From the human T2T-CHM13v2.0 reference genome, Homo sapiens, in the NCBI GenBank assembly GCA_009914755.4, contig CP068257.2, forward strand, positions 6,784,001 through 6,848,000: DNA of 64,000 nucleotides, read 5' to 3'. Of this stretch, positions 1 through 54,339 are shown in pieces (position 1 is the first letter of the stretch; each line of letters begins with the position of its first letter). Made by a program: the position numbers and the translations under genes. The notes below the pieces were generated by a model. The model saw only the letters and a program-made list of their open reading frames with translations. It did no database searches and was not told the origin of the DNA.

Positions 1-419
1 CAATCAACTTTGGTGGAATGGTATGGAATGGAATGGAAAGGAATGGAATGGAATGGAATAAAAGGGCATGGAATGGAATGAAATCAACCCGAATGGAATG
101 GAACGGAATGGAGTAGAATGGTATAGAATGGAATGGAATGGAAAGGAATCAACCTGAAGGGTATGGAATGGAATGGAATGGAATGGAATTGAATTGAATG
201 GAATGGAATGGAATCAACCAGAGGGGAATGCAATGAAATGAAATGGAATGGAATGGAACGGAAAGCAACGGAACGGAACGGAATTGAATGGAATGGAATG
301 AACCCGAGTGGAAAGGAATGGAATGGAATGGAATGGAATGGAATAACATGCAATCAACTTTGGTGGAATGGTATGGAATGGAATGGAATGGAATGGAATC
401 GAATGGAATGGAATCAACC

Positions 420-1870
420 CGAGTGGAATGCAATGGAATGAAAAGGAATGGAATGGAACGGAACGGAACGGAACGGAACGGAATTGAATGGAATGGAATC
501 AACCCGAGGGGAAAGGAATGGAATGGAATGGAATGGAATGGAATGGAATGGAATGGAATAAAAGGGCATGGAATGGAATGGAATCATCCCGAGGGGAATG
601 GAATGGAATGGAATGGAATGAAATGGAAATGAATCAAACCGAGTGGAATTTAATGTAATATAATGTAATGGAATGGAATGGAAACAATGCAATGCAATGA
701 TATCAACTGGAATGGAATGCATTGGAATGGAATGGAATGGAATCACCCTGAGTGGAAAGGAATAGAATGGAATGGAAAGGAATGTAATGGAATGGAAACT
801 AATGGAACGGAATGGAAACCACCAGAGTGGAATGGAATGCAATGGAATGGAATCGAATGGAATGGAATGGAATGGAATGGAATGGAATGGAATGGAATGG
901 AATAGAATACAACAAAATGGAAACAACCCGAGTGGAATGGCATGGAATGAAAAGGATTGAATATAATGGAATGGATTGGAATCAACCCGATTAGAAACTA
1001 ATGGAATGGAATGGAATGGAATGGAATGGAATGGAATGGAATGGAATGGAATGGAATGGAATCTAACCTAGTGGAATGGAAAGGAATGGAATTTAAAGAA
1101 ATGAAATGGAATGGAATGGAACAGAATTGAATGGAATGGAATGGAATGGAATCTACCCGAGTGAAATGGAATGGAATGGAATTTAATGGAATGGAATGGT
1201 ATAGAATGTAATGGAATCAACCCCAGTGGAATGGTATAGAATGTAATGTAATGGAATGGAATGGAATAAAATGGAATGGAATGGAAACAACCCGAGTGGA
1301 ATGGAATGGAATAACCGGAGAGGAATGGAATGGAATGGAGTGGAATGGAATGGAATAGAATGGAATAGAATGGAAAGGAATAGAATGAAATTGAAAGGAA
1401 TGGAATGGAAACCACCCGAGTGGAATGGAATGGAATGGAATGGAATGCAATGGAAACATCCCGAGTGGAATGGAAAGGAATGGAATGGAACGGAATATAA
1501 TGGAATGGAATGGAAACATCCCGAGTGGAATGGAATGGTATGGAATGCAATTGAATGGTATGGAACAGAACGGAATGAAATGGAATGCAATAGATTGCGA
1601 GTGGAATTGAATGGAATGGAATGGATTGGAATGGAATGGAAAGGATTGGAGTGGAATGGAATGGAATCAACAAGAATGGAATGGAAAGGAATGGAATGGA
1701 ATGGAATGGAATGGAATGGAATGGAATGGAATGGTAAGGAACAGAATGGAAACAACCCGAGTGGAATGGAATGGAATGGACTGTAATCCACCCGAGTGGA
1801 ATGGAATGTAATGGAATTGAACGGAATATAATGGAATTGAATGGAATCATCCCGAGTCGAATGGAATGGT
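420..1870. repeat. Short-variant-specific segment (also ~39135-40590 in copy 4, ~47020-48478 in copy 5)
   Basis: TTTAATGTAATATAATGTAATGG...AAACAATGCAATGCAATGATATCAACTGG occurs only at ~640, ~39370 and ~47275. The peptide signature MPFHSGFFHFVVFHCIPFHS (1068..1967, 39889..40683) occurs only in the short copies (a TRDVSIPFHYIPFHS-related segment is also in copy 5, 47666..48148). The long copies carry only ~85%-type paralogues (e.g. 10200-10480). Confidence 0.6.
903..1003. repeat. Recurring ~100 bp diverged landmark element GAATACAACAAAATGGAAACAACCCGAGTGGAATGGCATGGAATGGAAAGGACTTGAATATAATGGAATGGATTGGAATCAACCCGATTAGAAACTAATGG. Approximate copies start at 905, 1925, 3555, 4640, 11200, 13560, 15325, 17455, 19050, 20130, 26585, 28955, 30710, 32845, 34440, 35525, 39625, 40650, 42265, 43365, 47525, 51625, 57425
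   Basis: Read directly from the sequence. Spacing between neighbours is 1.0-2.4 kb, with a ~6.5 kb landmark-free zone spanning each HOR boundary. Copies at HOR-equivalent positions are identical; copies within a unit differ by a few substitutions (e.g. GATTAGAAACTAATGG vs GATTAGAAATTAATGG; GGAAACAACCC vs GGAAAAAACCC). Confidence 0.75.
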
Positions 1871-4800
1871 ATCTAATGCAATGGAATGGAATGGAATGGA
1901 ATGGAATGGAATGGAATGGAATGCAATGGAACACAACAAAATGGAAAAAACCCGAGTGGAATGGCATGGAATGGAAAGGACTTGAATATAATGGAATGGA
2001 TTGGTATCATCCCGATTAGAAATTAATGGAATGGAATGGAATGGAAAGGAATGGAATGGAATGGAACCTACACAAGTGGAATGGAATGAAATGGAAATAA
2101 ATGGAATGGAATAGAATGGAAAGGAATGGAACGGAATGGAATGGAATGGAATGGAATGGAATCTACCCGAGTGGAATGGAATGGAATGGAATTTAATGGA
2201 ATGGAATGGAATAGAATGGTATGGAATCAACCCGAGTGGAATGGTAAAGAATGCAATGTAATGGAACGGAATGGAATGGAATAAAATGGAATGGAATGGA
2301 ATGGAAACAACCCGAGTTGAATGGAATGGAATGGAATAACCGGAGAGGAATGGAATGGAATGCAGGGTAATGGAATGGAATAGAATGGAATGGAATGGAA
2401 TGGAATAGAATGAAATGGAAAGGAATGGAATAGAAACAACCCGAGTGGAATGGAATGGAATGGAATCCACCCGAGTGGAATGGAATGCAATGGAATTGAA
2501 CGGAATATAATGGAATTGAATAGAATCATCCTGAGTGGAATGGAATGGTATCTAATGCAATGGAGTGGAATGGAACAGAACTGAATGGGATGGAAAGAAT
2601 AGATTGAATCCAAGTGGAATTGAATGGAATGAAATGGATTCGAAAGGAATGGAATGGATTGGAATGGATTGGAATGGAAAGGAATGGATTCAACCCGAGT
2701 GGAATGTAATGGATTGGAATGGAGTGGAATGGAATGGAATGGAATCAACACGAATGGAATGGAACGGAATGGAATGGAATGGTATGGAATGAAATAGAAA
2801 GGAACGGAATAGAATCAACCAAAGTGGAATGGAATGGAATGGAATGGAAGGGAATCAACACGAGTGGAATTGAATGGAAAGGAATGCAATGGAATGGAAT
2901 GGAATGGAATGGAATGGAATGGAATGGAATGCAATGGAATTCAATGGAATCAACCCGAGTGGAATGGAATGCTATGGAATGCAATGGAATGGAGTGGAAC
3001 AGAACGGAATGGAATTGCATGGAATTGATTGAATCCGAGTGGAATTGAACGGAAGGGAATGCATTGGAATGGAAAGGAAAGGATTCAACCCGAGTGGAAT
3101 GTAATGGAATGGAGTGGAGTGGAATGGAATGGTATGGATTGGAATGGAATGGAATGGAATGGAATCAACACAAAGGGAATGGAATGGAATGGAATAGAAT
3201 GGAAAGGAATGGAATGGAATGGTATGGAATGTAATGTAATGGAATGGAATGGAATGAAATGGAATCAACCGGAATGGAATGGAATGGAATGGAATGGAAT
3301 GGAATGGAATGGAATGGAAATGAATCAAACCGAGTGGAATGGAATGGAATGGAATGGAAACAATGCCATGCAATGGTATCAACGGGAATGGAATGCATTG
3401 GAATGGAATGGAATGGAATCACCCTGAGTGGATAGGAAAGGAATGGAAGGGAATGGAAAGGAATGGAATGGAATGGAAACTAATGGAAGGGAATGGAAAC
3501 AACCCGAGTGGAATGGAATGGAATGGAATGGAATGGAATGGAATGGAATGGAATACAACAAAATGGAAACAACCCGAGTGGAATGGCATGGAATGGAAAG
3601 GACTTGAATATAATGGAATGGATTGGAATCAACCCGATTAGAAACTAATGGAATGGAATGGAATGGAATGGAATGGAATGGAATGGAATGGATTGGAATT
3701 TACCCGAATGGAATGGAATGTAATGAAATTAAATGGAATGGAAAGGAATGGAAAGGAATGGAATGGAATCTACACGAGTGGAATGGAATTGAATTGAATT
3801 TAATGGAATTGAACGGAATACAATGATATGGAATCAACCCGTGTGGAATGGTATAGAATGTAATGTAATGGAATGGAATGGAATAAAATGGAATGGACTG
3901 GAATGGAAACAAAACGAGTGGAACGGAATGGAATAACCTGAGAGGAATGGAATGGAATGGAGTGGCATGGAATGGAATAGAATGGAATGGAATGGAATGG
4001 AATAGAATGAAATTGAAAGGAATGGAATGGAAACAACCCGTGTGGAATGGAATGGAAAGGAATCAACCTGAAGGGTATGGAATGGAATGGAATGGAATGG
4101 AATGGAATGGAATGGAATGGAATCAACCAGAGTGGAATGCAATGGAATGAAATGGAATTGAAATGAATGGAATGGAACGGAATGGAACGGAACGGAATTG
4201 AATCGAATGGAATCAACCCAAATTGAAAGGAATGGAATGGAATGGACTGGAATGGAATGGAATGGAATGGAATGGAATGGAATGGATTGGAATGGATTCA
4301 ACACAAATGGAATGGAATGGAACGGAATGGAATAGAATGGAAAGGAGTGGAATGCAATTGAATGGAATGAAATGGAATAAACCCGAATGGAATGGAATGG
4401 AATGGAATGGAATTGAGTGGAATGGAATAAACACCAGTGGAATGAAATGGAATGGAATGGAATGGAATGAAATCAACACGAGTAGAACGGAACGGAATGG
4501 AATGGAATGGAAAGGAATGGAATCAACTGGAATGGAATGAAATGGAATGGAATGGAGTGGAATGTAATGGAATGCAATGGAATCAACAAGAGTGAAATGC
4601 AAAGGAATGGAATGGAATGGAATAGAATGGAATGGAATGGAATACAACAAAATGGAAAGAACTCGAGTGGAATGGCAAGGAATGGAAAGGACTTGAATAA
4701 AATGGAATGGATTGGAATCAACCCGATTAGAAACTAGTGGAAAGGAATGGAATGGAATGGAATCTGCCCGAGTGGAATGGAATGGAATGGAATTGAATGG

Positions 4801-7800
4801 AATGGAATGGAGTGGAATAGAATAGAATGGAATGGAATGGAACGGAATGGAAGGGAATTGAATGGAATAGAATGGAATCGAATCTACCCGAGTGGAATGG
4901 AATGGAAAGGAATTTAATGGAATGGAAAGGAATGGAATGGAATGGAATGGAATGGAATGGAATGGAATGGAATGGAATAAACACCAGTGGAATGAAATGG
5001 AATGGAATGGAATGGAATGCAATGGAATGGAATGGAATGGAGTGGAATGGAATAAACACCAGTGGAATGAAATGGAATGGAATGGAATGGAATGCAATGG
5101 AATGGAATGGAATGGAATGGAATGGAATGGAAACTACTGGAATGGAATGGAAACAACCCGAGTGGAATGGAATGCAATGGAATGGAATGGAATGGAATGA
5201 CACGGAATGGAATGGAATGGACTGGAATGGAATTTAAAGGAATGGAATGGAATCAACCCGACTGGAATGGAATGGAATGTAAAGCAGTGAATGGAATGTA
5301 ATGGAATGAAATGGAATGGAATGGAATGGTATGCAATGCAGTGGAATGGATTTGAATGGAATGGAATGGAACGGAACGGAACGGAATGGAATGGAATGGA
5401 ATGGAATGGAATGGAATGGACACCAATGGAATGGAATGGAATTGAATGGAATGGAATGGAATGGATTGGAATGGATGGGAATGGAATGGAACGGAATTAA
5501 CCGGAGTGGAATGCAATGGAATGGAATGGAGTGGAATGGAATCAACCCGAGTGGAATGGAATGGAATGGAATGGAATGGAATGGAATGGAATGGAATCAA
5601 CACGAATGGACTGGAACGAAATGGAATGGAATGGATTGGAATGGAATGGAATGGAATGGAATGGAATGGAATGGAATGGAATGGAATGGAATAGTATGGT
5701 ATGGAATGAAATGGAAAGAAACAGAATGGAATCAACCCAAGTGGAGTGGAATAGAATGGAATGGAAGGGAATCAATACGAGTCAAATGGAATGGAGTGGA
5801 ATGCTATGGAATGGAATGGAATGAAATGAAATGGAATGTAATGGAATGGAATGGAATTCAAGGGAATCAATCCGAGTGGAATGGAATGGTATGGAATGCA
5901 ATGGAATGGAGTGGAACAGAACGGAATGGAATGGAATGGAATTGATTGAATCCGAATGGAATTGAATGGAAGGGAATGCATTGGAATGGAATAGAAAGGA
6001 TTCAACCCGAGTGGAAAGTAATGGATTGGAATGGAATGGAAAGGAATGGAATGGAATCAACACAAATGGAATGGAATGGAATGGAAAGGAATGGATTGCA
6101 ATGGAATGGAATGGAATGGAATGGAATGGAATGGAATGGAAATGAAAGGAATGGAATGCAATGGAATGGAATGGAATGCAATGGAATGGAATGGAATGCA
6201 ATGGAATGGAATGGAATGAAATGAAATAAACCCGAATGGAATGGAATGGAATGGAATGCAATGCCATGGAATGGAATGGAATGGAGTGGAATGGAATAAA
6301 CAGAAGTGGAATGAATTGGAATGGAATGAAATGGAATGGAATGGAATGGAATGGACTGGAATGAAATAAACCCGAGTAGAATGGAACGGAATGGATTGGA
6401 ATGGAAAGGAATTGAATAAACTGGAATGGAATGAAATGGAATGGAAGGGAGTGGAATGGAATGGAATACAATGGAATCAACACGAGTGGAATGCAATGCA
6501 ACGGAAGGGAAAGGAATGGAATGGAACGGAACCAACCCGAGTGGAGTGGAATAAAGTGGAATGGAATGGAGTATGATCAACCTGAGTGGAACGGAATGCA
6601 ATGGAATGGAATGGAATGGAATGGTTTCAACCAGAGTGGAATGGAATGGAATGGAATGGAACGGAATGGAATGCAATGGACGTAACTGGAATGGAATGGA
6701 ATGGAATGGAATGGAATGGAATGGAATGGAACGGAATCAACATGAGTCAAATGGAATGGAATGGAATGGAATGGAATGGAATGGAATGGAGTCAACACGA
6801 ATGGACTGGAACGTAATGGAATGGAATGGAATGGAATGGTATGGTTTGGAATGAAATGGAAAGGAACGGAATGGAATCAACCCAAGTGGAGTGGAATAGA
6901 ATGGAATGGAAGGGAATGAAGACGAGTCAAATGGAATGGAATGGAATGCAATGGAAAGGAATGGAATGCAATGAAATGGAATGGAATGGAATGGAATGGA
7001 ATGCAATGGAATGGAATGGAATTCAGTGAAATGGAATGGAAAAGAATGGAATGGAATAGAATGGAATCTACTGTAATGGAATGGAAACAACCTGAGTGGA
7101 ATGGAATGCAATGGAATGGAATGGAATGGAATGGAATGGAATGGAATGGAAAGGAACGGAATGTAAAGGAATGGAATGGAATCAACCCGACTGGAATGGA
7201 ATGGAATGGAAAGGAATGAATGGAATGGAATGGAATGGAATGGAATGGAATGGAATGGAATGGAATGGAATTGTATGGAATACAATGATATGGAATTGAA
7301 TGGAATGGAACGGAATGGAACGGAATGGAATGGAATGGACCCCAATGGAATGGAATGGAATGGAATGGATTGGAATGGAATGGAACGGAATTAACCCGAG
7401 TGGAATGGAATGGAATGGAATGGAGTGGAATGGAATGGAATGGAATGGAATGGAATGGAATGGAAAGGAATCAACCCGAGTGGAATGCAATGAAATGGAA
7501 TGCAATGGAATGGAATGGTATGGAATCAACCCTAGTGAAATGGTATGGAATGGAATGGAATGGAACAGAATGGAATGGAATCATCCCGAATGGAATGGAA
7601 AGGAATGGAGAGGAATGGTACGGTATGGAATGGAATGGAAAGGAATCAACCCGAAGGTTATGGAATGGAATGCAATGGAATGGAATGGAATCAACCCGAG
7701 TGGAATGCAATCGAATAAAATGGAATGGAATGAAACGGAAAGGAACGGAATGGAACGGAATTGAAAGGAATGGAATCAAACCGAGTGGAAAGGAATGGAA

Positions 7801-8261
7801 TGGAATGAAATGCAATGGTGTGGAATGGAATGGAAAGGAATAACATGCAATCGACTTTAGTGGAATGGTATGGAATGGAATAATATGCAATCAACTTTGG
7901 TGGAATGGTATAGAATGGAATGGAATGGAAAGGAATCAACCTGAAGGGTATGGAATGGAATGGAATGGAATGGAATGGAATGGAATTGAATTGAATGGAA
8001 TGGAATGGAATGGAATCAACCAGAGGGGAATGCAATGAAATGAAATGGAATGGAATGGAACGGAAAGCAATGGAACGGAACGGAATTGAATGGAATGGAA
8101 TGAACCCGAGTGGAAAGGAATGGAATGGAATGGAATGGAATGGAATGGAATAACATGCAATCAACTTTGGTGGAATGGTATGGAATGGAATGGAATGGAA
8201 TGGAATCGAATGGAATGGAATCAACCCGAGTGGAATGCAATGGAATGAAAAGGAATGGAAT

Positions 8262-8288
8262 GGAACGGAACGGAACGGAACGGAACGG
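8262..8288. repeat. Example of a CpG-retaining (GGAAC)5 variant run; homologous runs at ~456-485, 23669-23695, 39172-39198, 47068-47094, 49800-49826
   Basis: Direct reading: GGAACGGAACGGAACGGAACGGAACGG. Confidence 0.85.
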
Positions 8289-8299
8289 AATGGAATGGA

Positions 8300-11200
8300 A
8301 TGGAATCAACCCGAGGGGAAAAGAATGGAATGGAATGGAATGGAATGGAATGGAATGGAATGGAATGGAATGGAATAAAAGGGCATGGAATGGAATGGAA
8401 TCATCCCGAGGGGAATGGAATGGAATGGAATGGAATGGAATGGAATGGAATGGAATGGAATGGAATCAACCTGAGTTGAACGGAATGGAATGGAATGGAA
8501 TGGAATGGAATGGAATGGTATCAACCAGAGTGGAATGGAATGGAATTGAATGGAATGGAACGGAATGGAATGCAATGGAATCAACTGGAATGGAATGGAA
8601 TTGAATGAAATGGAATGGAATCAACCTCAGTCAAATAGAATGGAATGGAATGGAATGGAATGGAATGGAATGGAATGGAATGGAATGGAATGGAATGGAA
8701 GGGAAAGGAACGGAATGGAATCAACCCGAGTGGAATGGAATGGAATGGAATGGAATCCACCCGAGTGGAATGGAATGGAATGGAATGCAATGGAATTGAA
8801 CGGAATATAATGGAATTAAATGGAATCATCCCGTGTGGAACAGATTGGTATCTAATGCAATGGAATGGAATGGAACAGAACGGAATGGAATGGAAGAATA
8901 GATTGAATCCAATTGGAATTGAATGGAATGGAATGGATTGGAAAGGAATGGAATGGATTGCAATGGATTGGAATGGAAAGGAATGGATTCAGCCCGAGTG
9001 GAATGTAATGGATTGGAATGGAATGGAATGGAATGGAATGGAATGGAATGGTATGGAATGAAATGGAAAGGAACGGAACAGAATCAACACAAGTGGAATG
9101 GAATGGAAAGGAATGCAATTGAATGGAATGGAATGGAATGGAATGGAATGGAATGGAATGGAATGGAATCAACCCGAGTGGAGTAGAATGGAATGGAATG
9201 GAATGAACCGCAGTGGAATGGAATGGAATGGAATGCAATAGAATGGAATGGAATGGAAAGGAATGGAATTCAATGGAATCAACCCGAGTGGAATGGAATG
9301 GTATGGAATGCAATGGAATGGAGTGGAACAGAACGGAATGGAATGGAATGGAAATGATTGAATCTGAGTGGAATTGAATGGAAGGGAAAGCATTGGAAAG
9401 GAATGGAAAGGATTCAACCCGAGTGGAATGTAATGGATTGGAATGGAGTGGAATGTAATGGAATGGATTGGAATGGAATGGAATCAACACAAATGGAAAG
9501 GAATGGAATGGAATGGAATAGAATGGAAAGGAATGGAATGCAATGGAATGGAATGGAATGGAATGAAATGGAATAAACCCGAATGGAATGGAATGGAATG
9601 GAATGGAATGGAATGAATTGGAATAAACCCGAGTGGAATGGAATGGAATGGAATGGAAAGGAATGGAATGGAGTGGAATGGAATGGACTGGAATGGAATG
9701 CAAAGTAATGGAATGGAACCAACCCGACTGGAATGGAATGGAATGGAATGGAAAGGAATGAATGGAATGGAATGGAATGGAATGGTATGGAATGCAATCG
9801 GATGGAATTCAATGGAATGGAACACAATGGAATGGAATGGAATGGAATGGGCCCCAATGGAATGTAATGTAATGGAATGGATTGGAATGGAATGGAATGG
9901 AATTAACCCGAGTGGAATGGAATGTAATGGAATGGAATGGAATGGAATCAACCCGAGTGGAAAGGAATGGCATGCAATCGAATGGAATGGAATGGAATCA
10001 ATCCAAGAGGAATGGAATGGAATGAAATGGAAAGCAATGGAATGGAATGGAATGGAATGGAATGGAATGGAATGGAATGGAATGGAATGGAATCAACCCG
10101 AGTGGAAAGGAATGGCATGCAATCGAATGGAATGGAATGGAATGGAATCAATCCAAGAGGAATGGAATGGAATGGAATGGAATGCAATGGAATGGAATGG
10201 AATGGAATGGAATGGAATGGAATGGAAATGAATCAAACCGAGTGGAATGTAATGTAATGTAATGGAATGGAATGGAATTTAAACAATGCAATGCAATGGT
10301 ATCAACTGGAATGGAATGCATTGGAATCGAATGGAATGGAATCACCCAGAGTTTAAAGGAATGGAATGGAATGGAATGGAATGGAATGGAATGGAATGGA
10401 AAGGAATGGAATGGAATGGAAACTACAGGAACCGAAAAGAAAGAACCCGAGTGGAATGGAATGCAATGCAATGGAAAGGAATGGAATGGAATGGAATGGA
10501 ACGGAATAAAATGGAATGGAATGGAATCATCCCGAGTGGAATGGAATGACATGGAATGCAATAGAATGGAATGGAACAGAACGGAATGAAATGGAATGGA
10601 ATAGATTGAATGCGAGTGGAAATGAATGGAACGGAATGGATTGGAATGGAATGGAATGGATTGAAGTGGAATGGAATGGAATCAACACGAATGGAATGGA
10701 ACGGAATGGCAGGGATTGGAAAGGAACGGAATGGAATCAACCCGAGTGGAATGGAATGGAATGGAATCCACCCGATTGGAATGAAATGGAATGCAATGTA
10801 ATGGAATGCATTGGAATCAACTCGAGTGGAATGGAATGGAATGGAATGGAATGGAATGGAATGGAATGGAAGAGAATCGAATCCAATGGAATCAACTGGA
10901 ATGGAATGGAATGGAATGGAATGGAATGGAATGGAATGGAATGGAATCAATCCGGGTGGAATGGAATGGAATGGAATGGAGTGCACTGGAATTAAATGGA
11001 GTGGAATGGAATGGAATGGAATCAACCCGTATGGAATGGAACGGAATGGAATGGAAAGGAATGGAATGGAATGGAATGGAATGGAATGGAATGGAATGGA
11101 ACAGAATAGAATGGAATCAGCCCAAATGGGATGGAATGGAATGGAATGGAATGGAATGGAATGGAATGGAATGGAATGGAATGGAATGGAATGGAATGGA

Positions 11201-14200
11201 ATACAACAAAATGGAAACAACCCGTGTGGAATGGCATGGAATGGAAAGGACTTGAATATAATGGAATGGATTGGTATCAACCCGATTAGAAATTAATGGA
11301 ATGGAATGTAATAGAATTAAATGGAATGGAATAGAAAGGAATGGAATGGAACGGAATGGAATGGAATGGAATGCAATGGAATCTACACGAGTGGAATGGA
11401 ATGGAATGGAATTTAATTGAATGGAATGGAATAGAATGGTATGGAATCAACCGGAGTGGAATGGTAAAGAATGCAATGTACTGGAACGGAATGGAATGGA
11501 ATAAAATGGATTGGAATGGAAAGGAAACAACCCGAGTTGAATGGAATGGAATGGAATGGAATGGAATGGAATGGAATGGAATGGAATGGAATCAACCCGA
11601 GTGGAGTAGAATGGAATGGAATGGAATGGAATGAACCGCAGTGGAATGGAATGGAATGGAATGCAATAGAATGGAATGGAATGGAATGGAATGGAATTCA
11701 ATGGAATCACCCAGAGTGGAGTGGAATGGTATGGAATGCAATGGAATGGAGTGGAACAGAACGGAATGGAATGGAATGGAAATGATTGAATCTGAGTGGA
11801 ATTGAATGGAAGAGAAAGCATTGGAAAGGAATGGAAAGGATTCAACCCGAATGGAATGGAATGGATTGGAATGGAGTGGAATGGAATGGAATGGAATGGA
11901 ATGGAATCAACACAAATGGAATGGAATGGAATGGAAGGGAATGGAATGCAATGGAATGGAATGGAATGGAATGGAATTAAATGGAATAAACCGGAATGTA
12001 ATGTAATGGAATGGAATGGAATGGAATGGAATGGAATGGAATGGAATGGAAACTACTGGAACCGAATGGAAAGAACCCGAGTGGAATGGAATGGAATGGA
12101 ATGGAATGGAATGGAATGGAATGGAACGGAATAAAATGGAATGGAATGGAATCATCCCGAGTGGAATGGAATGGCATGGAATGCAATAGAATGGAATGGA
12201 ACAGAACGGAATGAAATGGAATGGAATAGATTGAATGCGAGTGGAATTGAATGGAACGGAATGGATTGGAACGGAATGGAATGGATTGAAGTGGAATGGA
12301 ATGGAATCAACACGAATGGAATGGAACGGAATGGCAGGGATTGGAAAGGAACGGAATGGAATCAACCCGAGTGGAATGGAATGGAATGGAATCCACCCGA
12401 TTGGAATGAAATGGAATGGAATGTAATGGAATGCATTGGAATCAACTCGAGTGGAATGGAATGGAATGGAATGGAATGGAATGGAACAGAAATGAATCCA
12501 ATGGAATCAACTGGAATGGAATGGAATGGAATGGAATGGAATGGAATGGAATGGAATGGAATCAATCCGGGTGGAATGGAATGGAATGGAATGGAGTGCA
12601 CTGGAATTGAATGGAGTGGAATGGAATGGAATGGAATCAACCCGTATGGAATGGAACGGAATGGAATGGAAAGGAATGGAATGGAATGGAATGGAATGGA
12701 ACAGAATAGAATGGAATCAGCCCAAATGGGATGGAATGGAATGGAATGGAATGGAATGGAATGGAATGGAATGGAATGGAATGGAATGGAATTCTATGGA
12801 ATCAACCGTAGTGTAATGTAAATGAATGGAATATAATGGAATGGAATGGAAGGGAATGGAATCAACCCAAGTGCATTGGAATGGAATGGAATGCAACGGA
12901 ATCAACCCGAGAGTAATGGAATGGAAAGCAATTGAATGGAATGGAAAGGAATGGAATGGAATCAACCCGACAGGAATGGAATGGAATGGTATGGAATCAA
13001 ACCGAGTGGAATGGAATGGAATGGAATGGAAAGGAATGCAATGGAATGGAATGGAAAGGAATGGAATGGAATGGAATGGAAAGAACCCGAATGGAAAGGA
13101 ATGGAATGGAATTGAATGGATTGGAATGGAATGGAATTGAATCAACCCGAGTGGAATGGAATGGAATCGAGTGGAGTTGAATGGAATGGAATGGAATGGA
13201 ATAAAATAAACCCGAATGGAATGGAATGGAATGGAATGGAATGGAATGGAATGGAAAGGAATCAACCTGAGTGGAGTGGAATGGAATGGAATTTCATGAA
13301 ATGGAATGGAATGGAATGGTATGGAATAAACACGAGTGGAATGGTATGGAATGCAAAGGAATGGAACGGAATGGAATGGAATAAAATGGAATGGAATGGA
13401 ATGGAATCAACTCGAGTGAAATGGAATGGAATGAAATGGAATGGAAAGGAATGAAATCAACCGGAGTGCAGTGGAATGGAATGGAGTGGAATGGAATGGA
13501 ATGGAATGGAATGGAATGGAATGGAATGGAATGGAATGGCATGGAATGGAATGCAATGGAATACAACAAAATGGAAACAACCCGTGTGGAATGGCATGGA
13601 ATGGAAAGGACTTGAATATAATGGAATGGATTGGTATCAACCCGATTAGAAATTAATGGAATGGAATGTAATAGAATTAAATGGAATGGAATAGAATGGA
13701 ATGGAACGGAACGGAATGGAATGGAATGGAATGGAATGGAATGGAATGGAATGGAATGGAATGGAATGGAATGGAATCTACACGAGTGGAATGGAATGGA
13801 ATGGAATTTAATGGAATGGAATGGAATAGAATGGTATGGAATCAACCCGAGTGGAATGGTAAAGAATGCAATGTAATGGAACGGAATAGAATGGAATAAA
13901 ATGGATTGGAATGGAATGGAAACAACCCGAGTTGAATGGCATGGAATGGAATGGAATAGAATGGAATGGAATGGAGTAACCGGAGAGGAATGGAATGGAA
14001 TGCAGTGTAATGGAATGGAATAGAATGGAATGGAATGAAATGGAATGGAATAGAATGAAATGGAAAGGAATGGAATAGAAACAACCCGAGTGGAATGGAA
14101 AGGAATGGAATCCACCCGAGTGGAATGGAATGCAATGGAATGGAACTGAATATAATGGAATTGAAAGGAATCATCCCGAGTGGAATGGAATGGTATCTAA

Positions 14201-17200
14201 TGCAATGGAGTGGAATGGAACAGAACGGAATGGAATGGAAAGAATAGATTGAATCCAAGTGGAATTGAATGGAATGAAATGGATTGGAAAGGAATGGAAT
14301 GGATTGGTATGGAAAGGAATGGATTTAACCCGAGTGGAATGTAATGGATTGGAATGGAGTGGAATGGAATGGAATGGAATCAACACGAATGGAATGGAAC
14401 GGAATGGAACGGAATGGAATGGAATGGTATGGAATGAAATAGAAAGGAACGGAATAGAATCAACCCAAGTGGAATGGAATTGAATGGAATGGAAGGGAAT
14501 CAACACGAGTGGAATTGAATGGAAAGGAATGCAATGGAATGGAATGGAATGGAATGGAATGGAATGGAATCAACCCGAGTGGAATGGAATGGAATGGAAT
14601 GCAATAGAATGGAATGGAATGGAATGGAATGGAATGGAATGGAATGGAATGGAATGGAATTCAATGGAATCAAACCGAGTGGAATGGAATGCTATGGAAT
14701 GCAATGGAATGGAGTGGAACAGAACGGAATGGAATTGAATGGAATTGACTGAATCCGAGTGGAATTGAACGGAAGGGAATGCATTGGAATGGAATGGAAA
14801 GGATTCAACCCGAGTGGAATGAAATGGAATGGAGTGGAGTGGAAAGGAATGGTATGGATTGGAATGGAATGGAATGGAATCAACACAAAGGGAATGGAAT
14901 GGAATGGAATAGAATGGAAAGGAATGGAATGGAATGGTATGGAATGCAATGTAATGGAATGGAATGGAATGAAATGGAATAAACCCGAATGTAATGGAAT
15001 GGAATGGAATGGAACGGATTGGAATGGAATGGAATGGAATGGAATGGAATGGAATGGAATGGAGTGGAATGGAATGGAAATCAGTCAAACCGAGTGGAAT
15101 GTAATGGAATGGAATGGAATGGAATGGAAAGAGTGCAAAGCAATGCTATCAAAGGGAATGAAATGCATTGGAATGGAATGGAATGGAATCACCCTGAGTG
15201 GAAAGGAATGCAGTGGAATGGAATGGAAAGGATGGAATGGAAAGGAAACTAATGGAACGGAATGGAAACAACCCGAGTGGCATGGAATGCATTGGAATGG
15301 AATGGAATGGAATGGAATGGAATGGAATACAACAAAATGGAAACAACACGAGTGAAATGGCATGGAATGGAAATGACTTGAATATAATGGAATGGATTGG
15401 AATCAACCCGATTAGAAACTAATGGAATGGAATGGAATGGAATGGAACGGAATGGAATCTACACATGTGGAATGGAAAGTAATGGAATTAAATGGATTGG
15501 AATGGAATGTAATGGAATGGAACGGAATGGAATGGAATGGAATGGAATCTACCCGAGTGGAATGGAATGGAATGGAATTTCATGGAATGAAATGGAATAG
15601 AATGGTATGGAATCAACCCGAGTGGAATGGTAAAGAATGCAATGTAATGGAACGGAATGGAATGGAATAAAATGGAATGGAATGGAATGGAAACAACCCG
15701 AGTTGAATGGAATGGAATGGAATGGAATGGAATAACCGGAGAAAAATGGAATGGAATGCAGTGTAATGGAATGGAATAGAATGGAATGGAATGGAAAGGA
15801 ATGGAATAGAATGAAATGGAAAGGAATGGAATAGAAACAACCCGAGTGGAATGGAATGGAATGGATTCCACCCGAGTGGAATGGAATGGAATGGAATGGA
15901 AAGGAATACAATGGAATGGAATGGAACCGTCCCGAGTGGAATGGAATGGTATGGAATGCAATAGAATGTAATGGAACAGAACGGAATGAAATGGAATGGA
16001 ATAGATTGAATGCGAGTGGAATTGAATGGAACGGAATGGATTGGAATGGAATGGAATGGATTGGAGTGGAATGGAATGGAATCAACACGAATGGAACGGA
16101 ATGGAATGGCATGGATTGGAAAGGAACGGAATGGAATCAACCCAAGTGGAATGGAATGGAATGGAATCCACCCGATTGGAATGAAATGGAATGGAATGGA
16201 ATGGAATGTATTGGAATCAACTCGAGTGGAATGGAATGGAATGGAATGGAATGGAATGGAATGGAATGGAATGGAACAGAATCGAATCCAATGGAATCAA
16301 CTGGAATGGAATGGAATGGAATGGAATAAATCCGGGTGGAATGGAATGGAATGTAATGGAGTGCACTGGAATTGAATGGAGTGGAATGGAATGGAATGGA
16401 ATGGAAAGGAATGGAATCAACCCGTATGGAATGGAACGGAATGGAATGGAAAGGAAGGGAATGGAATGGAATGGAACAGAATAGAATGGAATCAGCCCGA
16501 ATGGGATGGAATGGAATGGAATGGAATAGAATGGAATGGAATGGAATGGAATGGAATGGAATGGAATGGAATTCTATGGAATCAACCGTAGTGTAATGTA
16601 AATGAATGGAATATAATGGAATGGAATGGAAGGGAATGGAATCAACCCAAGTGCATTGGAATGGAATGGAATGCAACGGAATCAACCCGAGAGTAATGGA
16701 ATGGAAAGGAATGGAATGGAATGGAAAGAAATGGAATGGAATCAACCCGACAGGAATGGAATGGAATGGTATGGAATCAAACCGAGTGGAATGGAATGGA
16801 ATGGAATGGAATGGAATGGAATGGAATGGAATGGAATGGAATGGAATTTAATGGAGTGCTATGGAATCAACCCGAGTGGAATGGAATGGAATGGAATGGA
16901 ATGGAATGGAATGGAATGGAATGGGATGGAATGGAATGCAATGGAATGGAATGGAATGGAATGGAATGGAATGGAATGGAATGAACCCGAATGGAATGGA
17001 ATGGAATGGAATTGAATGGATTGCAATGGAATGGAATTGATTCAACCCGAGTGGAATGGAATGGAATCGAGTGGAGTTGAATGGAATGGAGTGGAATGGA
17101 ATGGAATGGAATGGAATGAAATAAACCCGAATGGAATGGAATGGAATGGAATGGAATGGAATGGAATGGAATGGAAAGGAATCAACCCGAGTGGAGTGGA

Positions 17201-17400
17201 ATGGAATGGAATTTCATGAAATGGAATGGAATGGAATGGTATGGAATAAACACGACTGGAATGGTATGGAATGGAACGGAATGGAATGGAATAAAATGGA
17301 ATGGAATGGAATGGAATCAACTCGAGTGAAATGGAATGGAATGAAATGGAATGGAAAGGAATGTAATCAACCGGAGTGGAGTGGAATGGAATGGAGTAGA
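8300..17400. repeat. Long-variant-specific segment (copy 2; equivalent block in copy 3 at ~23700-32800), itself built from nested diverged duplications (~10500-11300 ~ 12140-12830 ~ 15950-16600; 12830-13660 ~ 16600-17450; 11280-11520 ~ 13640-13880 ~ 17530-17790)
   Basis: Artefact ORFs 10516..10995, 12141..12821 and 15856..16329 translate to near-identical peptides (MEWNHPEWNGM[T/A]WNAIEWNGTERNEMEWNRLNASG...). So do 12826..13140 and 16606..16851 (MEYNGMEWKGMESTQVHWNGMECNGINPRVMEWK...). No exact counterpart in copies 1, 4 or 5. Confidence 0.65.
8412..8466. repeat. Example of a pure (GGAAT)11 run; dozens of similar uninterrupted runs of 8-14 pentamers occur throughout (e.g. 1005-1060, 12001-12050, 32180-32235)
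   Basis: Direct reading. Confidence 0.9.
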
Positions 17401-20400
17401 ATGGAATGGAATGGAATGGAATGGAATGGAATGGAATGGAATGGAATGCAATGGAACACAACAAAATGGAAAAAACCCGAGTGGAATGGCATGGAATGGA
17501 AAGGACTTGAATATAATGGAATGGATTGGTATCATCCCGATTAGAAATTAATGGAATGGAATGGAATGGAAAGGAATGGAATGGAATGGAACCTACACAA
17601 GTGGAATGGAATGAAATGGAAATAAATGGAATGGAATAGAATGGAAAGGAATGGAACGGAATGGAATGGAATGGAATGGAATCTACACGAGTGGAATGGA
17701 ATGGAATGGAATTTAATGGAATGGAATGGAATAGAATGGTATGGAATCAACCCGAGTGGAATGGTAAAGAATGCAATGTAATGGAACGGAATGGAATGGA
17801 ATAAAATGGAATGGAATGGAATGGAAACAACCCGAGTTGAATGGAATGGAATGGAATAACCGGAGAGGAATGGAATGGAATGCAGGGTAATGGAATGGAA
17901 TAGAATGGAATGGAATGGAATGGAATAGAATGAAATGGAAAGGAATGGAATAGAAACAACCCGAGTGGAATGGAATGGAATGGAATCCACCCGAGTGGAA
18001 TGGAATGCAATGGAATTGAACGGAATATAATGGAATTGAATAGAATCATCCTGAGTGGAATGGAATGGTATCTAATGCAATGGAGTGGAATGGAACAGAA
18101 CTGAATGGGATGGAAAGAATAGATTGAATCCAAGTGGAATTGAATGGAATGAAATGGATTCGAAAGGAATGGAATGGATTGGAATGGATTGGAATGGAAA
18201 GGAATGGATTCAACCCGAGTGGAATGTAATGGATTGGAATGGAGTGGAATGGAATGGAATGGAATCAACACGAATGGAATGGAACGGAATGGAATGGAAT
18301 GGTATGGAATGAAATAGAAAGGAACGGAATAGAATCAACCAAAGTGGAATGGAATGGAATGGAATGGAAGGGAATCAACACGAGTGGAATTGAATGGAAA
18401 GGAATGCAATGGAATGGAATGGAATGGAATGGAATGGAATGGAATGGAATTCAATGGAATCAACCCGAGTGGAATGGAATGCTATGGAATGCAATGGAAT
18501 GGAGTGGAACAGAACGGAATGGAATTGCATGGAATTGATTGAATCCGAGTGGAATTGAACGGAAGGGAATGCATTGGAATGGAATGGAAAGGATTCAACC
18601 CGAGTGGAATGTAATGGAATGGAGTGGAGTGGAATGGAATGGTATGGATTGGAATGGAATGGAATGGAATGGAATCAACACAAAGGGAATGGAATGGAAT
18701 GGAATAGAATGGAAAGGAATGGAATGGAATGGTATGGAATGTAATGTAATGGAATGGAATGGAATGAAATGGAATCAACCGGAATGGAATGGAATGGAAT
18801 GGAATGGAAATGAATCAAACCGAGTGGAATGGAATGGAATGGAATGGAAACAATGCCATGCAATGGTATCAACGGGAATGGAATGCATTGGAATGGAATG
18901 GAATGGAATCACCCTGAGTGGATAGGAAAGGAATGGAAGGGAATGGAAAGGAATGGAATGGAATGGAAACTAATGGAAGGGAATGGAAACAACCCGAGTG
19001 GAATGGAATGGAATGGAATGGAATGGAATGGAATGGAATGGAATGGAATACAACAAAATGGAAACAACCCGAGTGGAATGGCATGGAATGGAAAGGACTT
19101 GAATATAATGGAATGGATTGGAATCAACCCGATTAGAAACTAATGGAATGGAATGGAATGGAATGGAATGGAATGGAATGGAATGGATTGGAATTTACCC
19201 GAATGGAATGGAATGTAATGAAATTAAATGGAATGGAAAGGAATGGAAAGGAATGGAATGGAATCTACACGAGTGGAATGGAATTGAATTGAATTTAATG
19301 GAATTGAACGGAATACAATGATATGGAATCAACCCGTGTGGAATGGTATAGAATGTAATGTAATGGAATGGAATGGAATAAAATGGAATGGACTGGAATG
19401 GAAACAAAACGAGTGGAACGGAATGGAATAACCTGAGAGGAATGGAATGGAATGGAGTGGCATGGAATGGAATAGAATGGAATGGAATGGAATGGAATAG
19501 AATGAAATTGAAAGGAATGGAATGGAAACAACCCGTGTGGAATGGAATGGAAAGGAATCAACCTGAAGGGTATGGAATGGAATGGAATGGAATGGAATGG
19601 AATGGAATGGAATGGAATGGAATCAACCAGAGTGGAATGCAATGGAATGAAATGGAATTGAAATGAATGGAATGGAACGGAATGGAACGGAACGGAATTG
19701 AATCGAATGGAATCAACCCAAATTGAAAGGAATGGAATGGAATGGACTGGAATGGAATGGAATGGAATGGAATGGAATGGATTGGAATGGATTCAACACA
19801 AATGGAATGGAATGGAACGGAATGGAATAGAATGGAAAGGAGTGGAATGCAATTGAATGGAATGAAATGGAATAAACCCGAATGGAATGGAATGGAATGG
19901 AATGGAATTGAGTGGAATGGAATAAACACCAGTGGAATGAAATGGAATGGAATGGAATGGAATGAAATCAACACGAGTAGAACGGAACGGAATGGAATGG
20001 AATGGAAAGGAATGGAATCAACTGGAATGGAATGAAATGGAATGGAATGGAGTGGAATGTAATGGAATGCAATGGAATCAACAAGAGTGAAATGCAAAGG
20101 AATGGAATGGAATGGAATAGAATGGAATGGAATGGAATACAACAAAATGGAAAGAACTCGAGTGGAATGGCAAGGAATGGAAAGGACTTGAATAAAATGG
20201 AATGGATTGGAATCAACCCGATTAGAAACTAGTGGAAAGGAATGGAATGGAATGGAATCTGCCCGAGTGGAATGGAATGGAATGGAATTGAATGGAATGG
20301 AATGGAGTGGAATAGAATAGAATGGAATGGAATGGAACGGAATGGAAGGGAATTGAATGGAATAGAATGGAATCGAATCTACCCGAGTGGAATGGAATGG

Positions 20401-46602: not shown

Positions 46603-48478
46603 CAACTTTGGTGGAATGGTATGGAATGGAATGGAAAGGAATGGAATGGAATGGAATAAAAGGGCATGGAATGGAATGGAATCAACCCGAATGGAATGGA
46701 ACGGAATGGAGTAGAATGGTATAGAATGGAATGGAATGGAAAGGAATCAACCTGAAGGGTATGGAATGGAATGGAATGGAATGGAATTGAATTGAATGGA
46801 ATGGAATGGAATGGAATCAACCAGAGGGGAATGCAATGAAATGAAATGGAATGGAATGGAACGGAAAGCAACGGAACGGAACGGAATTGAATGGAATGGA
46901 ATGAACCCGAGTGGAAAGGAATGGAATGGAATGGAATGGAATGGAATGGAATAACATGCAATCAACTTTGGTGGAATGGTATGGAATGGAATGGAATGGA
47001 ATGGAATCGAATGGAATGGAATCAACCCGAGTGGAATGCAATGGAATGAAAAGGAATGGAATGGAACGGAACGGAACGGAACGGAACGGAATGGAATGGA
47101 ATGGAATCAACCCGAGGGGAAAAGAATGGAATGGAATGGAATGGAATGGAATGGAATGGAATGGAATGGAATGGAATAAAAGGGCATGGAATGGAATGGA
47201 ATCATCCCGAGGGGAATGGAATGGAATGGAATGGAATGGAATGGAATGAAACGGAAATAAATCAAACCGAGTGGAATTTAATGTAATATAATGTAATGGA
47301 ATGGAATGGAAACAGTGCAATGCAATGATATCAACTGGAATGGAATGCATTGGAATGGAATGGAATGGAATCACCCTGAGTGGAAAGGAATAGAATGGAA
47401 TGGAAAGGAATGTAATGGAATGGAAACTAATGGAACGGAATGGAAACCACCAGAGTGGAATGGAATGCAATGGAATGGAATCGAATGGAATGGAATGGAA
47501 TGGAATGGAATGGAATGGAATGGAATGGAATACAACAAAATGGAAACAACCCGAGTGGAATGGCATGGAATGAAAAGGATTGAATATAATGGAATGGATT
47601 GGAATCAACCCGATTAGAAACTAATGGAATGGAATGGAATGGAATGGAATGGAATGGAATCTAACCTAGTGGAATGGAAAGGAATGGAATTTAAAGAAAT
47701 GAAATGGAATGGAATGGAACAGAATTGAATGGAATGGAATGGAATGGAATCTACCCGAGTGAAATGGAATGGAATGGAATTTAATGGAATGGAATGGTAT
47801 AGAATGTAATGGAATCAACCCCAGTGGAATGGTATAGAATGTAATGGAATGGAATGGAATGGAATAAAATGGAATGGAATGGAAACAACCCGAGTAGAAT
47901 GGAATGGAATAACCGGAGAGGAATGGAATGGAATGGAGTGGAATGGAATGGAATAGAATGGAATAGAAAGGAATGGAATAGAATGAAATTGAAAGGAATG
48001 GAATGGAAACCACCCGAGTGGAATGGAATGGAATGGAATGGAATGCAATGGAATCAACCTGAGTGGAATGGAAAGGAATGGAATGGAACGGAATATAATG
48101 GAATGGAATGGAAACATCCCGAGTGGAATGGAATGGTATGGAATGCAATTGAATGGTATGGAACAGAACGGAATGAAATGGAATGCAATAGATTGATTGC
48201 GAGTGGAATTGAATGGAATGGAATGGATTGGAATGGAATGGAAAGGATTGGAGTGGAATGGAATGGAATCAACAAGAATGGAATGGAAAGGAATGGAATG
48301 GAATGGAATGGAATGGAATGGAATGGAATGGTAAGGAACAGAATGGAAACAACCCGAGTGGAATGGAATGGAATGCACTGTAATCCACCCGAGTGGAATG
48401 GAATGTAATGGAATTGAACGGAATATAATGGAATTGAATGGAATCATCCCGAGTCGAATGGAATGGTATCTAATGCAA
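46603..48478. repeat. HOR copy 5, truncated short-variant copy (first ~1.9 kb only), slightly more diverged (~98% by eye) than copies 1 and 4
   Basis: Marker at 46603; short-specific motif at ~47275. 47850-48478 aligns to 39960-40600 with a handful of substitutions. Colinearity with copy 4 ends abruptly after GGTATCTAATGCAATGG at ~48478. Confidence 0.7.
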
Positions 48479-53400: not shown

Positions 53401-54339
53401 GTGGAATTGAATGGAAGGGAATACATCGGAATGGAATGGAAAAGATTCAACCCGAGTGGAATGTAATGGAATGGATTGGAGTGGAATGGAGTGGAATCAC
53501 CACAAATGGAATGGAATGCAATGGAATAGAAGGGATTGGAATAGAATGGAATGGAATGGAACGGAATGGAATAGAATGGAATGTAATGGAATGGAGTAGA
53601 ATGGAATAAACACCAGTGGAATGAAATGGAATGGAATGGAATGGAATGGAATTGAATGGAATGAAATGAACCCCAGTAGAACACAACGGAATGGAATGGA
53701 ATGGAAAGGAATGGAATCAACTGGAATGGAATGAAATGGAATGGAATGGAGTGGAATGGAATGGAATGCAATGGAATCAACAAGAGTGAAATGCAATGGA
53801 ATGGAATGGAATGGAATGGAACGGAATGGAATCAACCAGAATGGAGTGAAATAAAATGGAAAGGAGTGGAATGGAATCAACCTGAGTGGAACGGAACGGA
53901 ATGGAATGGAATGCAATGGAATGGAATGGAATGGAATGGAATGGTATCAACCAGAGTGGAATGGAATGGAATGGAATGGAATGGAGCAGGAATGGAATGC
54001 AATGGAATCAACTGCAATGAAATGGAATGGAATGGAATTGATTGAATCCGAGTGGAAATAAAAGGAAGGGAGTGCATTGGAATGGAATGGAAAGGATTAA
54101 ACCCGAGTGGAATGTAATGGAATGGGGTGGAGTGGAATGGAATGGTATGGAATGGAATGGAATGGAATAGAATCAACACAAAGAGAAAGGAATGGAATGG
54201 AATGGAATAGAATGGAAAGGAACGGAATGCACTGGAATGGAATGGAATGGAATGAAATGGAATAAACCCGAATGGAATGGAATGGAATGGAATGGAATGG
54301 AATGGAATGGAATGCAATGGAATGGAATGGAATGGAATG

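What the first reader, a model, noticed from the sequence alone, without database searches (positions are those of the whole stretch)
420..17400. Short vs long HOR variants differ by a block swap, not a simple deletion
Copy 1 positions ~420-620 still align with copy 2 ~8300-8480. After that the short-specific block (to ~1870) and the long-specific block (to ~17400) are only ~85%-type paralogues of each other, before rejoining a common tail. The short form is therefore not merely the long form minus 7.6 kb. It more likely arose by unequal exchange between diverged paralogous sub-units followed by independent homogenisation, or from a different ancestral register.
Basis: inference. Interest (0 to 1): 0.5.

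Follow-up and report, generated by a model that had tools for sequence, protein, structure and literature searches.

The report
Two overlapping repeat registers in HSat3
This is an ordinary GGAAT-type (human satellite 3-like) pericentromeric satellite in which a 7.8 kb and a 15.4 kb repeat unit share a common core but carry different, anciently diverged pieces of an older array, joined by unequal exchange inside perfect GGAAT runs rather than by a simple deletion.

Summary
The window is one-stranded (GGAAT)n/CAACCCGAGT satellite (HSat3-like). The units run short, long, long, short, then a truncated short.

- **Shared parts.** Short (~7.83 kb) and long (~15.39 kb) units share a head H and a 6.2 kb tail T at 99.1-99.9%.
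- **Different parts.** Between H and T sits either a 1.28 kb block S (617-1897) or a 8.97 kb block L (8437-17405).
- **Not a deletion.** S has no ~99% counterpart in the long unit. Its best full-length match is 81.7% (15069-16327), at the top of the 78-82% family background.

Its alternative, a different ancestral register, is.

- **S into flank.** The third short copy runs from S into an older diverged flank Z (48494 on), leaving at the very GGAAT run where S joins T. That S-to-Z order recurs in 4 distinct in-window paralogues (9 occurrences) and 7/7 external contigs.
- **H into S.** This order recurs in the old flank.
- **L into T.** This order recurs in a visually ~96% paralogue.

So S|T and H|L are the derived joins, both inside (AATGG)n runs. 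Most likely an ancestral order L-T-H-S-Z was amplified in two overlapping registers, [L T H] and [T H S]. This is ordinary satellite dynamics and of low interest.

The parts
340..620 (+). Head H of short copy S1. The same block lies at 8147-8437 (L1), 23542-23832 (L2), 39056-39346 (S2) and 46948-47248 (S3). It is shared by both unit types.
   Evidence: The five-way alignment is identical except for one substitution and GGAAT-run length differences.
617..1897 (+). Short-specific block S, 1.28 kb. Further copies lie at 39343-40613 (S2) and 47245-48494 (S3).
   Evidence: S1 vs S2 is 99.94% and S3 vs either is 98.8%. The best match anywhere in a long unit is 81.7%.
8437..17405 (+). Long-specific block L, 8.97 kb. 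The second copy is at 23832-32795. It starts in register with S position ~1452, that is, in the middle of an S-like sub-unit, and it contains old internal duplications.
1920..8146 (+). Common tail T of S1. The same block lies at 17445-23541, 32835-39055 and 40636-46947.
   Evidence: Pairwise substitution identity is 99.05-99.89%. Seven indels are shared by S1+S2 against L1+L2.
1880..1919 (+). Derived junction S|T, (AATGG)8. The second copy is at 40596-40635.
   Evidence: Only at these 2 of the 12 occurrences of GGTATCTAATGCAATGG is the motif followed by T-start. The other 10 are followed by Z-start-type sequence.
8414..8463 (+). Derived junction H|L, (AATGG)10. The second copy is at 23809-23863, with (AATGG)11.
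   Evidence: The H-end module is followed by an S-start module in S1, S2, S3 and the old-flank unit Z2, and by L only in L1 and L2.
48477..48491 (+). Parental S->Z continuity, (AATGG)3, at the end of truncated copy S3. This is the right edge of the homogenised domain.
   Evidence: S3 leaves the S1 register at S1 1897 / 48494. It is colinear through this point with L 13928-14718, T 17783-18588, L-start 8547-9412 and Z2 52504-53310, and with 7/7 external contigs.
17400..17444 (+). Parental L->T continuity, (AATGG)9. The second copy is at 32790-32834 and an older paralogue at 13490-13539.
   Evidence: 17160-17560 aligns colinearly through the run with 13250-13670 at about 96%, a visual estimate from the printed alignment. 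300-bp windows give 90-95% at offset 3.9 kb.
48495..64000 (+). Older, diverged flank Z of the same satellite family, with a loose ~5.8 kb period. It holds S-like units, for example Z2 51270-52802.
   Evidence: 300-bp windows are 78-95% identical to the best place in S1+L1. Chains are and the H-end to S-start paralogue.
15069..16327 (+). Best-register paralogue of S inside the long-specific block. The tail paralogue is 18799-20034.
   Evidence: 81.8% and 81.0% full-length identity. The rare 13-mer chain has 147 hits at offset ~14400.

Best explanation
The window covers the right-hand edge of a young, homogenised domain of an HSat3-type (GGAAT)n satellite, together with the older diverged array (Z) it grew out of.

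The ancestral single-pass order was most likely W - L - T - H - S - Z. Two unequal exchanges, each inside perfect (AATGG)n runs, created two overlapping tandem-duplication registers that share the T-H core.
1. An exchange between the run at the S/Z boundary and the run at the L/T boundary made the S|T join, and with it the 7.8 kb unit [T H S].
2. An exchange between the run at the H/S boundary and a run inside an S-like sub-unit at the W/L boundary made the H|L join, and with it the 15.4 kb unit [L T H].

In-register unequal crossing-over and conversion then spread both unit types and kept T and H at 99-99.9% identity. S and L are therefore neighbouring pieces of the old array, not derivatives of each other, and that is why they resemble each other only at the family baseline.

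Shown here:
- the block anatomy
- the positions of the junctions in (AATGG)n runs
- that S|T is derived and that S->Z and L->T are old adjacencies
- that S is as distant from the long unit as the old flank is

Inferred:
- that H->S is ancestral (one independent paralogue)
- the existence of W
- the order of the two events
- the recombination mechanism itself
For: 1. Anatomy and junctions are set out.
2. S3 leaves the S1/S2 register at S1 1897, within the same run where S1 and S2 join T. This coincidence is expected if S3->Z is the unrearranged parent of S|T.
3. S-end plus Z-start is colinear through the breakpoint with four in-window paralogues, at 80-100% per 50 bp.
4. Of 12 occurrences of GGTATCTAATGCAATGG, 10 (S3 among them) are followed by AACAGAAC...AGAATAGATTGAA. 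The 9 other than S3 match Z-start at 0.81-0.88 against 0.73-0.76 to T-start. Only S1 and S2 are followed by T-start.
5. In 7/7 external HSat3 contigs the same motif is followed by Z-start-type sequence, 0.77-0.84 against 0.74-0.77.
6. The recombinant run (AATGG)8 lies between the parental runs (AATGG)3 for S->Z and (AATGG)9 for L->T.
7. L->T is colinear at about 96% (visual estimate from the printed alignment) with the older paralogue 13250-13670.
8. H-end to S-start is colinear in the old-flank unit Z2, 51270-51620. No paralogue shows H-end followed by L-start.
9. L begins in register with the middle of an S-like sub-unit.
10. S scores 694 at 81.7% against the long unit. Old-flank blocks score 444-676 and blocks internal to the long unit have a median of 756.
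11. The edge copy S3 is the most diverged S copy, at 98.8%.
Against: - The left edge of the array is not in the window, so the predicted W->L parental adjacency is unobserved.
- H->S polarity rests on a single independent paralogue, Z2. A second H-end-type module at 55795 is followed by something else.
- 50-bp identity profiles in this satellite have a high, noisy baseline of 70-85%.
- The S3->Z continuity could in principle be an in-register recombinant between S-end and an S-end-like module of the flank. The coincidence of breakpoints argues against this.
- There are only two full copies of each unit type, so the order of events and the 'separate lineages' signal (7 shared indels, 2 substitutions) are weak.
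- The species and chromosome of origin are unknown, and assembly correctness could not be checked.
Confidence: 0.6

Rival explanations
1. Plain deletion: the short unit is the long unit with about 7.6 kb removed.
For: The two units differ by about 7.56-7.69 kb and share H and T at 99% or more.
Against: The 1.28 kb S block has no counterpart at 99% or more in the long unit. Its best full-length match is 81.7%, and its best 200-bp patch is 97.5% and lies in the tail.
Confidence: 0.02
2. One reading: an unequal exchange between diverged paralogous sub-units of the long unit produced the short unit, and the chimeric sub-unit then diverged or was homogenised independently.
For: - The long unit is built of paralogous sub-units. 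The marker CCCGATTAGAAA occurs six times per long unit, and there are internal duplications of 88-99%.
- S has a colinear paralogue at 15069-16327 and another at 18799-20034.
- S1 and S2 share 7 indels against L1 and L2 in the tail.
Against: - Such a chimera should be about 99% identical to its two parents, as its flanks H and T are. S is at baseline distance from everything in the long unit.
- The junctions are not in paralogous register.
- S continues colinearly into the old flank in S3. A product internal to the long unit would not do this.
Confidence: 0.1
3. Single replacement event: one unit type is ancestral, and its variable block was replaced in one two-breakpoint event. This would be a double crossover or long-tract conversion with a diverged donor, either from elsewhere in the old array or from another chromosome's HSat3.
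For: - Both breakpoints lie in (AATGG)n runs that could support template switching or conversion.
- S and L are both old-array-type sequence.
- S1 and S2 are the most similar pair, which suggests the S type spread recently.
Against: - It needs two coordinated breakpoints.
- It does not explain why the array's edge copy ends exactly at the S|T breakpoint and continues into the flank.
- The in-window flank already holds colinear H-end / S-like / X-like units, so no foreign donor is needed.
Confidence: 0.2
4. Assembly artefact: the short/long alternation comes from mis-joins or collapse in a hard-to-assemble satellite.
For: HSat arrays are difficult to assemble, and no read-level data were available here.
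Against: - Each junction type recurs with small private differences. H|L runs are 10 and 11 units and H|S runs are 4, 4 and 6 units.
- S copies differ by 0.06-1.2%.
- The junction sequences make a coherent parental/recombinant set.
Confidence: 0.05

Closest known systems
Human satellite 3 (HSat3) nested tandem repeats (NTRs), as described for T2T-CHM13 (Altemose et al., bioRxiv 10.1101/2021.07.12.452052; subfamilies in PMC4022460)
   Same: - It is a (CATTC/GGAAT)n-derived satellite with multi-kilobase repeat units that are not built of equal monomers.
- The periodicity changes locally within one array. [quoted passage not shown]
- The CAACCCGAGT punctuation is present, with 437 sites.
   Different: - The subfamily and chromosome could not be assigned. 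None of the 14 published 'most common subfamily-specific 24-mers' occurs exactly.
- The specific pair of 7.8 and 15.4 kb units, and their two-register relation, was not found in the papers searched.
Alpha-satellite HOR structural variants and layered expansion of centromeric arrays (same paper, Fig. 3)
   Same: - A young, 99%+ homogeneous domain abuts an older diverged layer of the same family.
- Unit-length variants coexist and are interspersed within one array.
   Different: - Alpha-satellite variants differ by whole 171-bp monomers gained or lost in register.
- Here the sub-units are irregular, with marker spacing of 1025-2360 bp.
- The two units differ by non-homologous blocks joined in pentamer runs.
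- Only one flank of the domain is seen.
Classical unequal crossing-over model of tandem-repeat evolution (Smith 1976; cited from my own knowledge)
   Same: - New unit lengths arise by out-of-register exchange at short homologies and then spread by in-register exchange.
- Array edges are the least homogenised. S3 is the most diverged S copy.
   Different: Both the parental adjacencies (S->Z, L->T) and the recombinant (S|T) are preserved side by side in one 64 kb window, so one founding junction can be read directly.

Membership tests
HSat3 (classical human satellite 3) | The array is based on the pentamer GGAAT/ATTCC. | tested here: met
   TRF gives period 5 with consensus TGGAA over 14-63994, about 12,809 copies at 73% matches. 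53% of bases lie in perfect GGAAT pentamers.
HSat3 (classical human satellite 3) | The decamer CAACCCGAGT (= ACTCGGGTTG) is interspersed at irregular intervals. This definition is from my own knowledge of the classical description. | tested here: met
   There are 437 matches at up to 1 mismatch, against 0.57 expected. All 200 rows the tool listed are on the + strand.
HSat3 (classical human satellite 3) | The sequence is not HSat2, whose units are more diverged and rich in ATTCGATTCC-type motifs. | tested here: met
   The three HSat2 subfamily 24-mers from PMC4022460 Table 1 have no hit even at 2 mismatches. There are only 67 TCGA sites in 64 kb.
HSat3 subfamily A1-A6 / B1-B5 (Altemose 2014) | Subfamily-specific 24-mers are present. 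| tested here: inconclusive
   None of the 11 HSat3 'most common' 24-mers occurs exactly. The nearest is HSat3B1, with 14 hits at 1 mismatch. The full k-mer sets were not available.
HSat3 (human, pericentromeric) | The sequence is of human origin and lies in a pericentromeric location. | not testable with these tools
   No human or primate assembly is searchable here. Seven metagenome contigs with related HSat3 are only 77-86% identical.
Nested tandem repeat (NTR) sensu Altemose et al. | A multi-kb repeat unit recurs at high identity and is not composed of a discrete number of equal-length monomers. | tested here: met
   Periods are 15,385-15,395 and about 7,800-7,890 bp. Copies are 99.05-99.94% identical. 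Internal marker spacings are irregular: 1025, 1622 and 1089 bp in the short unit, and 2360, 1766, 2129, 1592 and 1089 bp in the long unit.
Alpha-satellite-type higher-order repeat (HOR) | The unit is made of a discrete number of monomers of similar length. | tested here: not met
   The sub-units are irregular in length and content. 'HOR' is therefore a loose label here.
Product of unequal exchange at short repeats | The recombinant junction lies in a tract shared by both parental adjacencies, and both parents are identifiable. | tested here: met
   For S|T, the parents are S->Z with (AATGG)3 and L->T with (AATGG)9, and the recombinant has (AATGG)8. For H|L, only one parent (H->S) is in the window. 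The W->L parent is not observable.

The most novel reading that the evidence does not exclude
The window may preserve a directly readable founding event of a satellite unit. Parental and recombinant junctions sit side by side at an array edge. If so, young HSat3 domains would grow by repeatedly capturing adjacent pieces of the older array through exchanges in perfect pentamer runs. Array edges genome-wide would then record the order and polarity of layered expansion in non-alpha satellites.
Probability: 0.12. Interest if true: 0.45.

Novelty: new member of a known kind. Interest (0 to 1): 0.2.

Why it matters
Mainly as a worked example. It shows that unit-length variants in HSat3-type arrays need not be deletions or duplications of one another. 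They can instead be alternative amplification registers of an older array, with breakpoints in perfect pentamer runs.

That affects how such arrays are annotated: "variant HOR" calls would mislead here. It also affects how their history is reconstructed. The result opens no long-standing question and fits established models of satellite evolution.

Tried and rejected
- **Whole-window BLAST.** Self-comparison was useless on this low-complexity sequence. One run returned nothing at the thresholds used and one timed out. I replaced it with k-mer chaining and Smith-Waterman windows.
- **Full-length local alignment.** It is barely discriminating, since everything aligns at 75-82%. I relied instead on rare k-mers, diagnostic motifs and breakpoint colinearity.
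- **Exact S-specific 34-mer.** It had 0 hits in metagenome contigs and in genome contigs.
- **Degenerate version of that motif.** It found 7 metagenome contigs and none in genome contigs. The contigs come from other HSat3 arrays at 77-86% identity. They were useful only for what follows the S-end motif.
- **Subfamily assignment by published 24-mers.** It failed.
- **Rfam.** No family reached its gathering score anywhere in the window.
- **Literature searches.** They returned no description of a 7.8/15.4 kb HSat3 unit pair.
- **50-bp identity profiles for H->S against H->L polarity.** They were too noisy on their own. Motif-based tests were used instead.
- **Import of S from another array.** Considered and rejected as unnecessary, because the adjacent flank already holds colinear S-like units.
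Full report
**What the sequence is.**

The whole window is one uninterrupted pentameric array. TRF reports period 5 with consensus TGGAA over 14-63994. GC is 0.40, and GC and AT skew are strong and constant, so there is no strand switch.

The decamer CAACCCGAGT occurs 437 times at up to 1 mismatch, against 0.57 expected. All 200 rows the tool listed are on the + strand. 53% of bases lie in perfect GGAAT units.

These are the classical features of human satellite 3. That definition comes from my own knowledge, and PMC4022460 gives the (CATTC)n ancestry. HSat2-specific 24-mers are absent even at 2 mismatches. None of the published "most common" HSat3 subfamily 24-mers occurs exactly, so subfamily and chromosome stay unassigned. 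Rfam finds nothing. No human assembly is searchable with these tools.

**Unit map.**

K-mer offsets peak at 15,385-15,395 bp and at about 7,800-7,890 bp. Anchor chaining and exact runs give five units in this order:

| Unit | Coordinates | Type |
|---|---|---|
| S1 | ~340-8146 | short |
| L1 | 8147-23541 | long |
| L2 | 23542-39055 | long |
| S2 | 39056-46947 | short |
| S3 | 46948-48494 | short, truncated |

From 48,495 to 64,000 the sequence (Z) belongs to the same family but is much more diverged.

Each unit begins with a head H of about 280 bp and ends with a common tail T of about 6.2 kb. Between them lies one of two blocks:
- S, 1.28 kb (617-1897; also 39343-40613 and 47245-48494)
- L, 8.97 kb (8437-17405; also 23832-32795)

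**Checking the observation.**

H is identical between S1 and L1 apart from one substitution and a 10-bp indel. Identity stops in a GGAAT run at S1 ~620 / L1 ~8437.

Identity resumes in another GGAAT run at S1 ~1880-1897 / L1 ~17405.

| 200-bp windows (S1 coordinates) | Best identity |
|---|---|
| before 550 | 99% |
| 600-1850 | 85-97.5%, at scattered places |
| 1851-2050 | 97% |
| from 1901 | 100% |

Smith-Waterman of S against the long-specific block gives at best 618-1902 vs 15069-16327 at 81.8%. Against the tail it gives 18799-20034 at 81.0%. So the plain-deletion reading is refuted, and the "block swap" observation is confirmed.

**What "85%" means here.**

Any 1.28-kb block of this satellite finds a partner at 78-82%:

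| Query blocks | Score against the long unit |
|---|---|
| Old-flank (Z) blocks | 444-676 |
| Blocks of the long unit against the rest of that unit | median 756, up to 1015 |
| S | 694 (81.7%) |

S is therefore about as far from everything in the long unit as the old flank is.

A specific register does exist. Rare 13-mers chain S 634-1810 to 15085-16210 with 147 hits. They chain S 622-1404 to 18742-19521, and all of S to the flank unit at 51391-52802. This is deep paralogy between sub-units. Those sub-units are marked by CCCGATTAGAAA, which occurs 4 times per short unit and 6 times per long unit at irregular spacing. The best local matches of S are in the common tail, not in L.

**Polarity of the right junction.**

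S3 follows S1 and S2 at 98.8% up to S1 position 1897, then departs into Z. That is inside the very run where S1 and S2 join T.

S-end plus Z-start is colinear straight through that point with four paralogues in the window:
- L 13928-14718
- T 17783-18588
- L-start 8547-9412
- Z2 52504-53310

The diagnostic motif GGTATCTAATGCAATGG occurs 12 times. Ten occurrences, S3 among them, are followed by AACAGAAC..AGAATAGATTGAA, which is Z-start-type sequence. The nine other than S3 match Z-start at 0.81-0.88 against 0.73-0.76 to T-start. Only S1 and S2 are followed by T-start.

Seven external HSat3 contigs fished from metagenomes with that motif all continue in the Z-start way.

Hence S->Z is the ancestral adjacency and S|T is a derived join.

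The other parent, L->T, is old as well. 17160-17560 aligns through the run with the paralogue 13250-13670 at about 96%, a visual estimate from the printed alignment.

The run lengths fit an exchange within the run:

| Adjacency | Run |
|---|---|
| S->Z (parent) | (AATGG)3 |
| L->T (parent) | (AATGG)9 |
| S\|T (recombinant) | (AATGG)8 |

**Polarity of the left junction.**

The H-end module (AATAAAAGGGCATGG...CATCCCGAGGGG plus a run) is followed by the S-start module (GGAAATGAATCAAACCGAGTGG...) in S1, S2 and S3. The same holds, with the same spacing and continuing colinearly for about 350 bp, in the old-flank unit Z2 at 51270-51620.

No paralogue shows H-end followed by L-start.

L begins, right after an (AATGG)10-11 run, in register with position ~1452 of an S-like sub-unit. 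It then runs through an S-end-like and a Z-start-like module.

So H->S is most likely ancestral and H|L derived. This rests on one independent paralogue and is less secure than the right-junction result.

**Model.**

The simplest history is an ancestral order W-L-T-H-S-Z within an old, diverged array, amplified in two overlapping registers that share T-H:
- [T H S], 7.8 kb, with founding join S|T
- [L T H], 15.4 kb, with founding join H|L

Both joins were made by out-of-register exchange in perfect pentamer runs. The window holds 469 runs of 4 or more units, covering 22% of it.

In-register exchange and conversion then keep T and H at 99.05-99.89%. S1 and S2 are the closest pair, at 99.89% in T+H and 99.94% in H+S. 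They share 7 indels against L1 and L2. This suggests unit types propagate as lineages and that the short type spread recently. The edge copy S3 is the most diverged S copy, and its H carries L-type variants, as expected for a poorly homogenised array edge.

- "Not merely the long form minus 7.6 kb" is correct.
- "From a different ancestral register" matches what the evidence supports.
- [quoted passage not shown] is not supported. The junctions are not in paralogous register. A chimera of long-unit sub-units would match its parents at about 99%, as its flanks do. S continues into the old flank.

**Comparison with what is known.**

Multi-kb units in HSat2/3 are termed nested tandem repeats rather than HORs. 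Their periodicity is reported to vary locally within arrays (10.1101/2021.07.12.452052). Young homogeneous domains flanked by older layers are also described there, for alpha satellite.

The present case is an ordinary instance of these phenomena. I did not find this particular 7.8/15.4 kb pair described.

**Caveats.**

- The left edge of the domain is outside the window.
- There are only two full copies per unit type.
- Identity profiles are noisy against a 75-85% baseline.
- Species, chromosome and assembly correctness are untested.

**Verdict.**

The best explanation carries confidence 0.6. It is a new member of a known kind, with interest 0.2.

Noticed in passing
window 9051-19250: The long unit contains old internal segmental duplications:
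- 12.0-15.5 kb resembles 15.8-19.2 kb (offset 3.72-3.92 kb, 88-98%)
- 10401-11150 resembles 12033-12770 (offset ~1.62 kb, up to 99%)
- 9051-9650 resembles 11471-12080 (offset 2.43 kb, up to 96%)
The first of these spans the L/T boundary.
   Followed up: partly
window 854-1050 vs 18995-19192 (= 3475-3672 in S1): A 200-bp patch of S around the CCCGATTAGAAA marker is 97.5% identical to a tail sub-unit, while the rest of S is 80-92% identical to it. This may be a gene-conversion tract between paralogous sub-units.
   Followed up: no
window 46948-48494: The edge copy S3 differs by 1.2% from S1 and S2, which are 99.94% alike. Its head carries the variants otherwise seen only in the long units: G at the position equivalent to S1 485, and AAAAGAATGG.
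   Followed up: partly
window 48495-64000: The older flank has a loose ~5.8 kb period. 54013-55002 resembles 59831-60831, and marker-like sites at 51708 and 57510 lie 5802 bp apart. A cluster of 7 AATAAAAGGGCATGG modules lies at 55245-56969, against 2 per young unit.
   Followed up: partly
window 1881-47238 (common tails): Almost all length differences between copies are multiples of 5 bp, which points to pentamer slippage. L1 lacks about 80, 105 and 205 bp stretches near the tail end relative to the other copies.
   Followed up: no
L001-L007 (metagenome contigs ERZ1034300.2402, ERZ501045.1981, OJMA01005050.1, ERZ1033839.12534, OPGP01005128.1, OOQC01001150.1, OJKR01006097.1): Public metagenome assemblies hold 1-3.3 kb contigs of HSat3-type satellite, 77-86% identical to this window. 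They are presumably host (human) DNA carried into metagenome assemblies.
   Followed up: partly
whole window: None of the 14 published 'most common subfamily-specific' HSat2/3 24-mers occurs exactly. The nearest is HSat3B1, with 14 sites at one mismatch. The array's subfamily, and even its species, remains open.
   Followed up: partly
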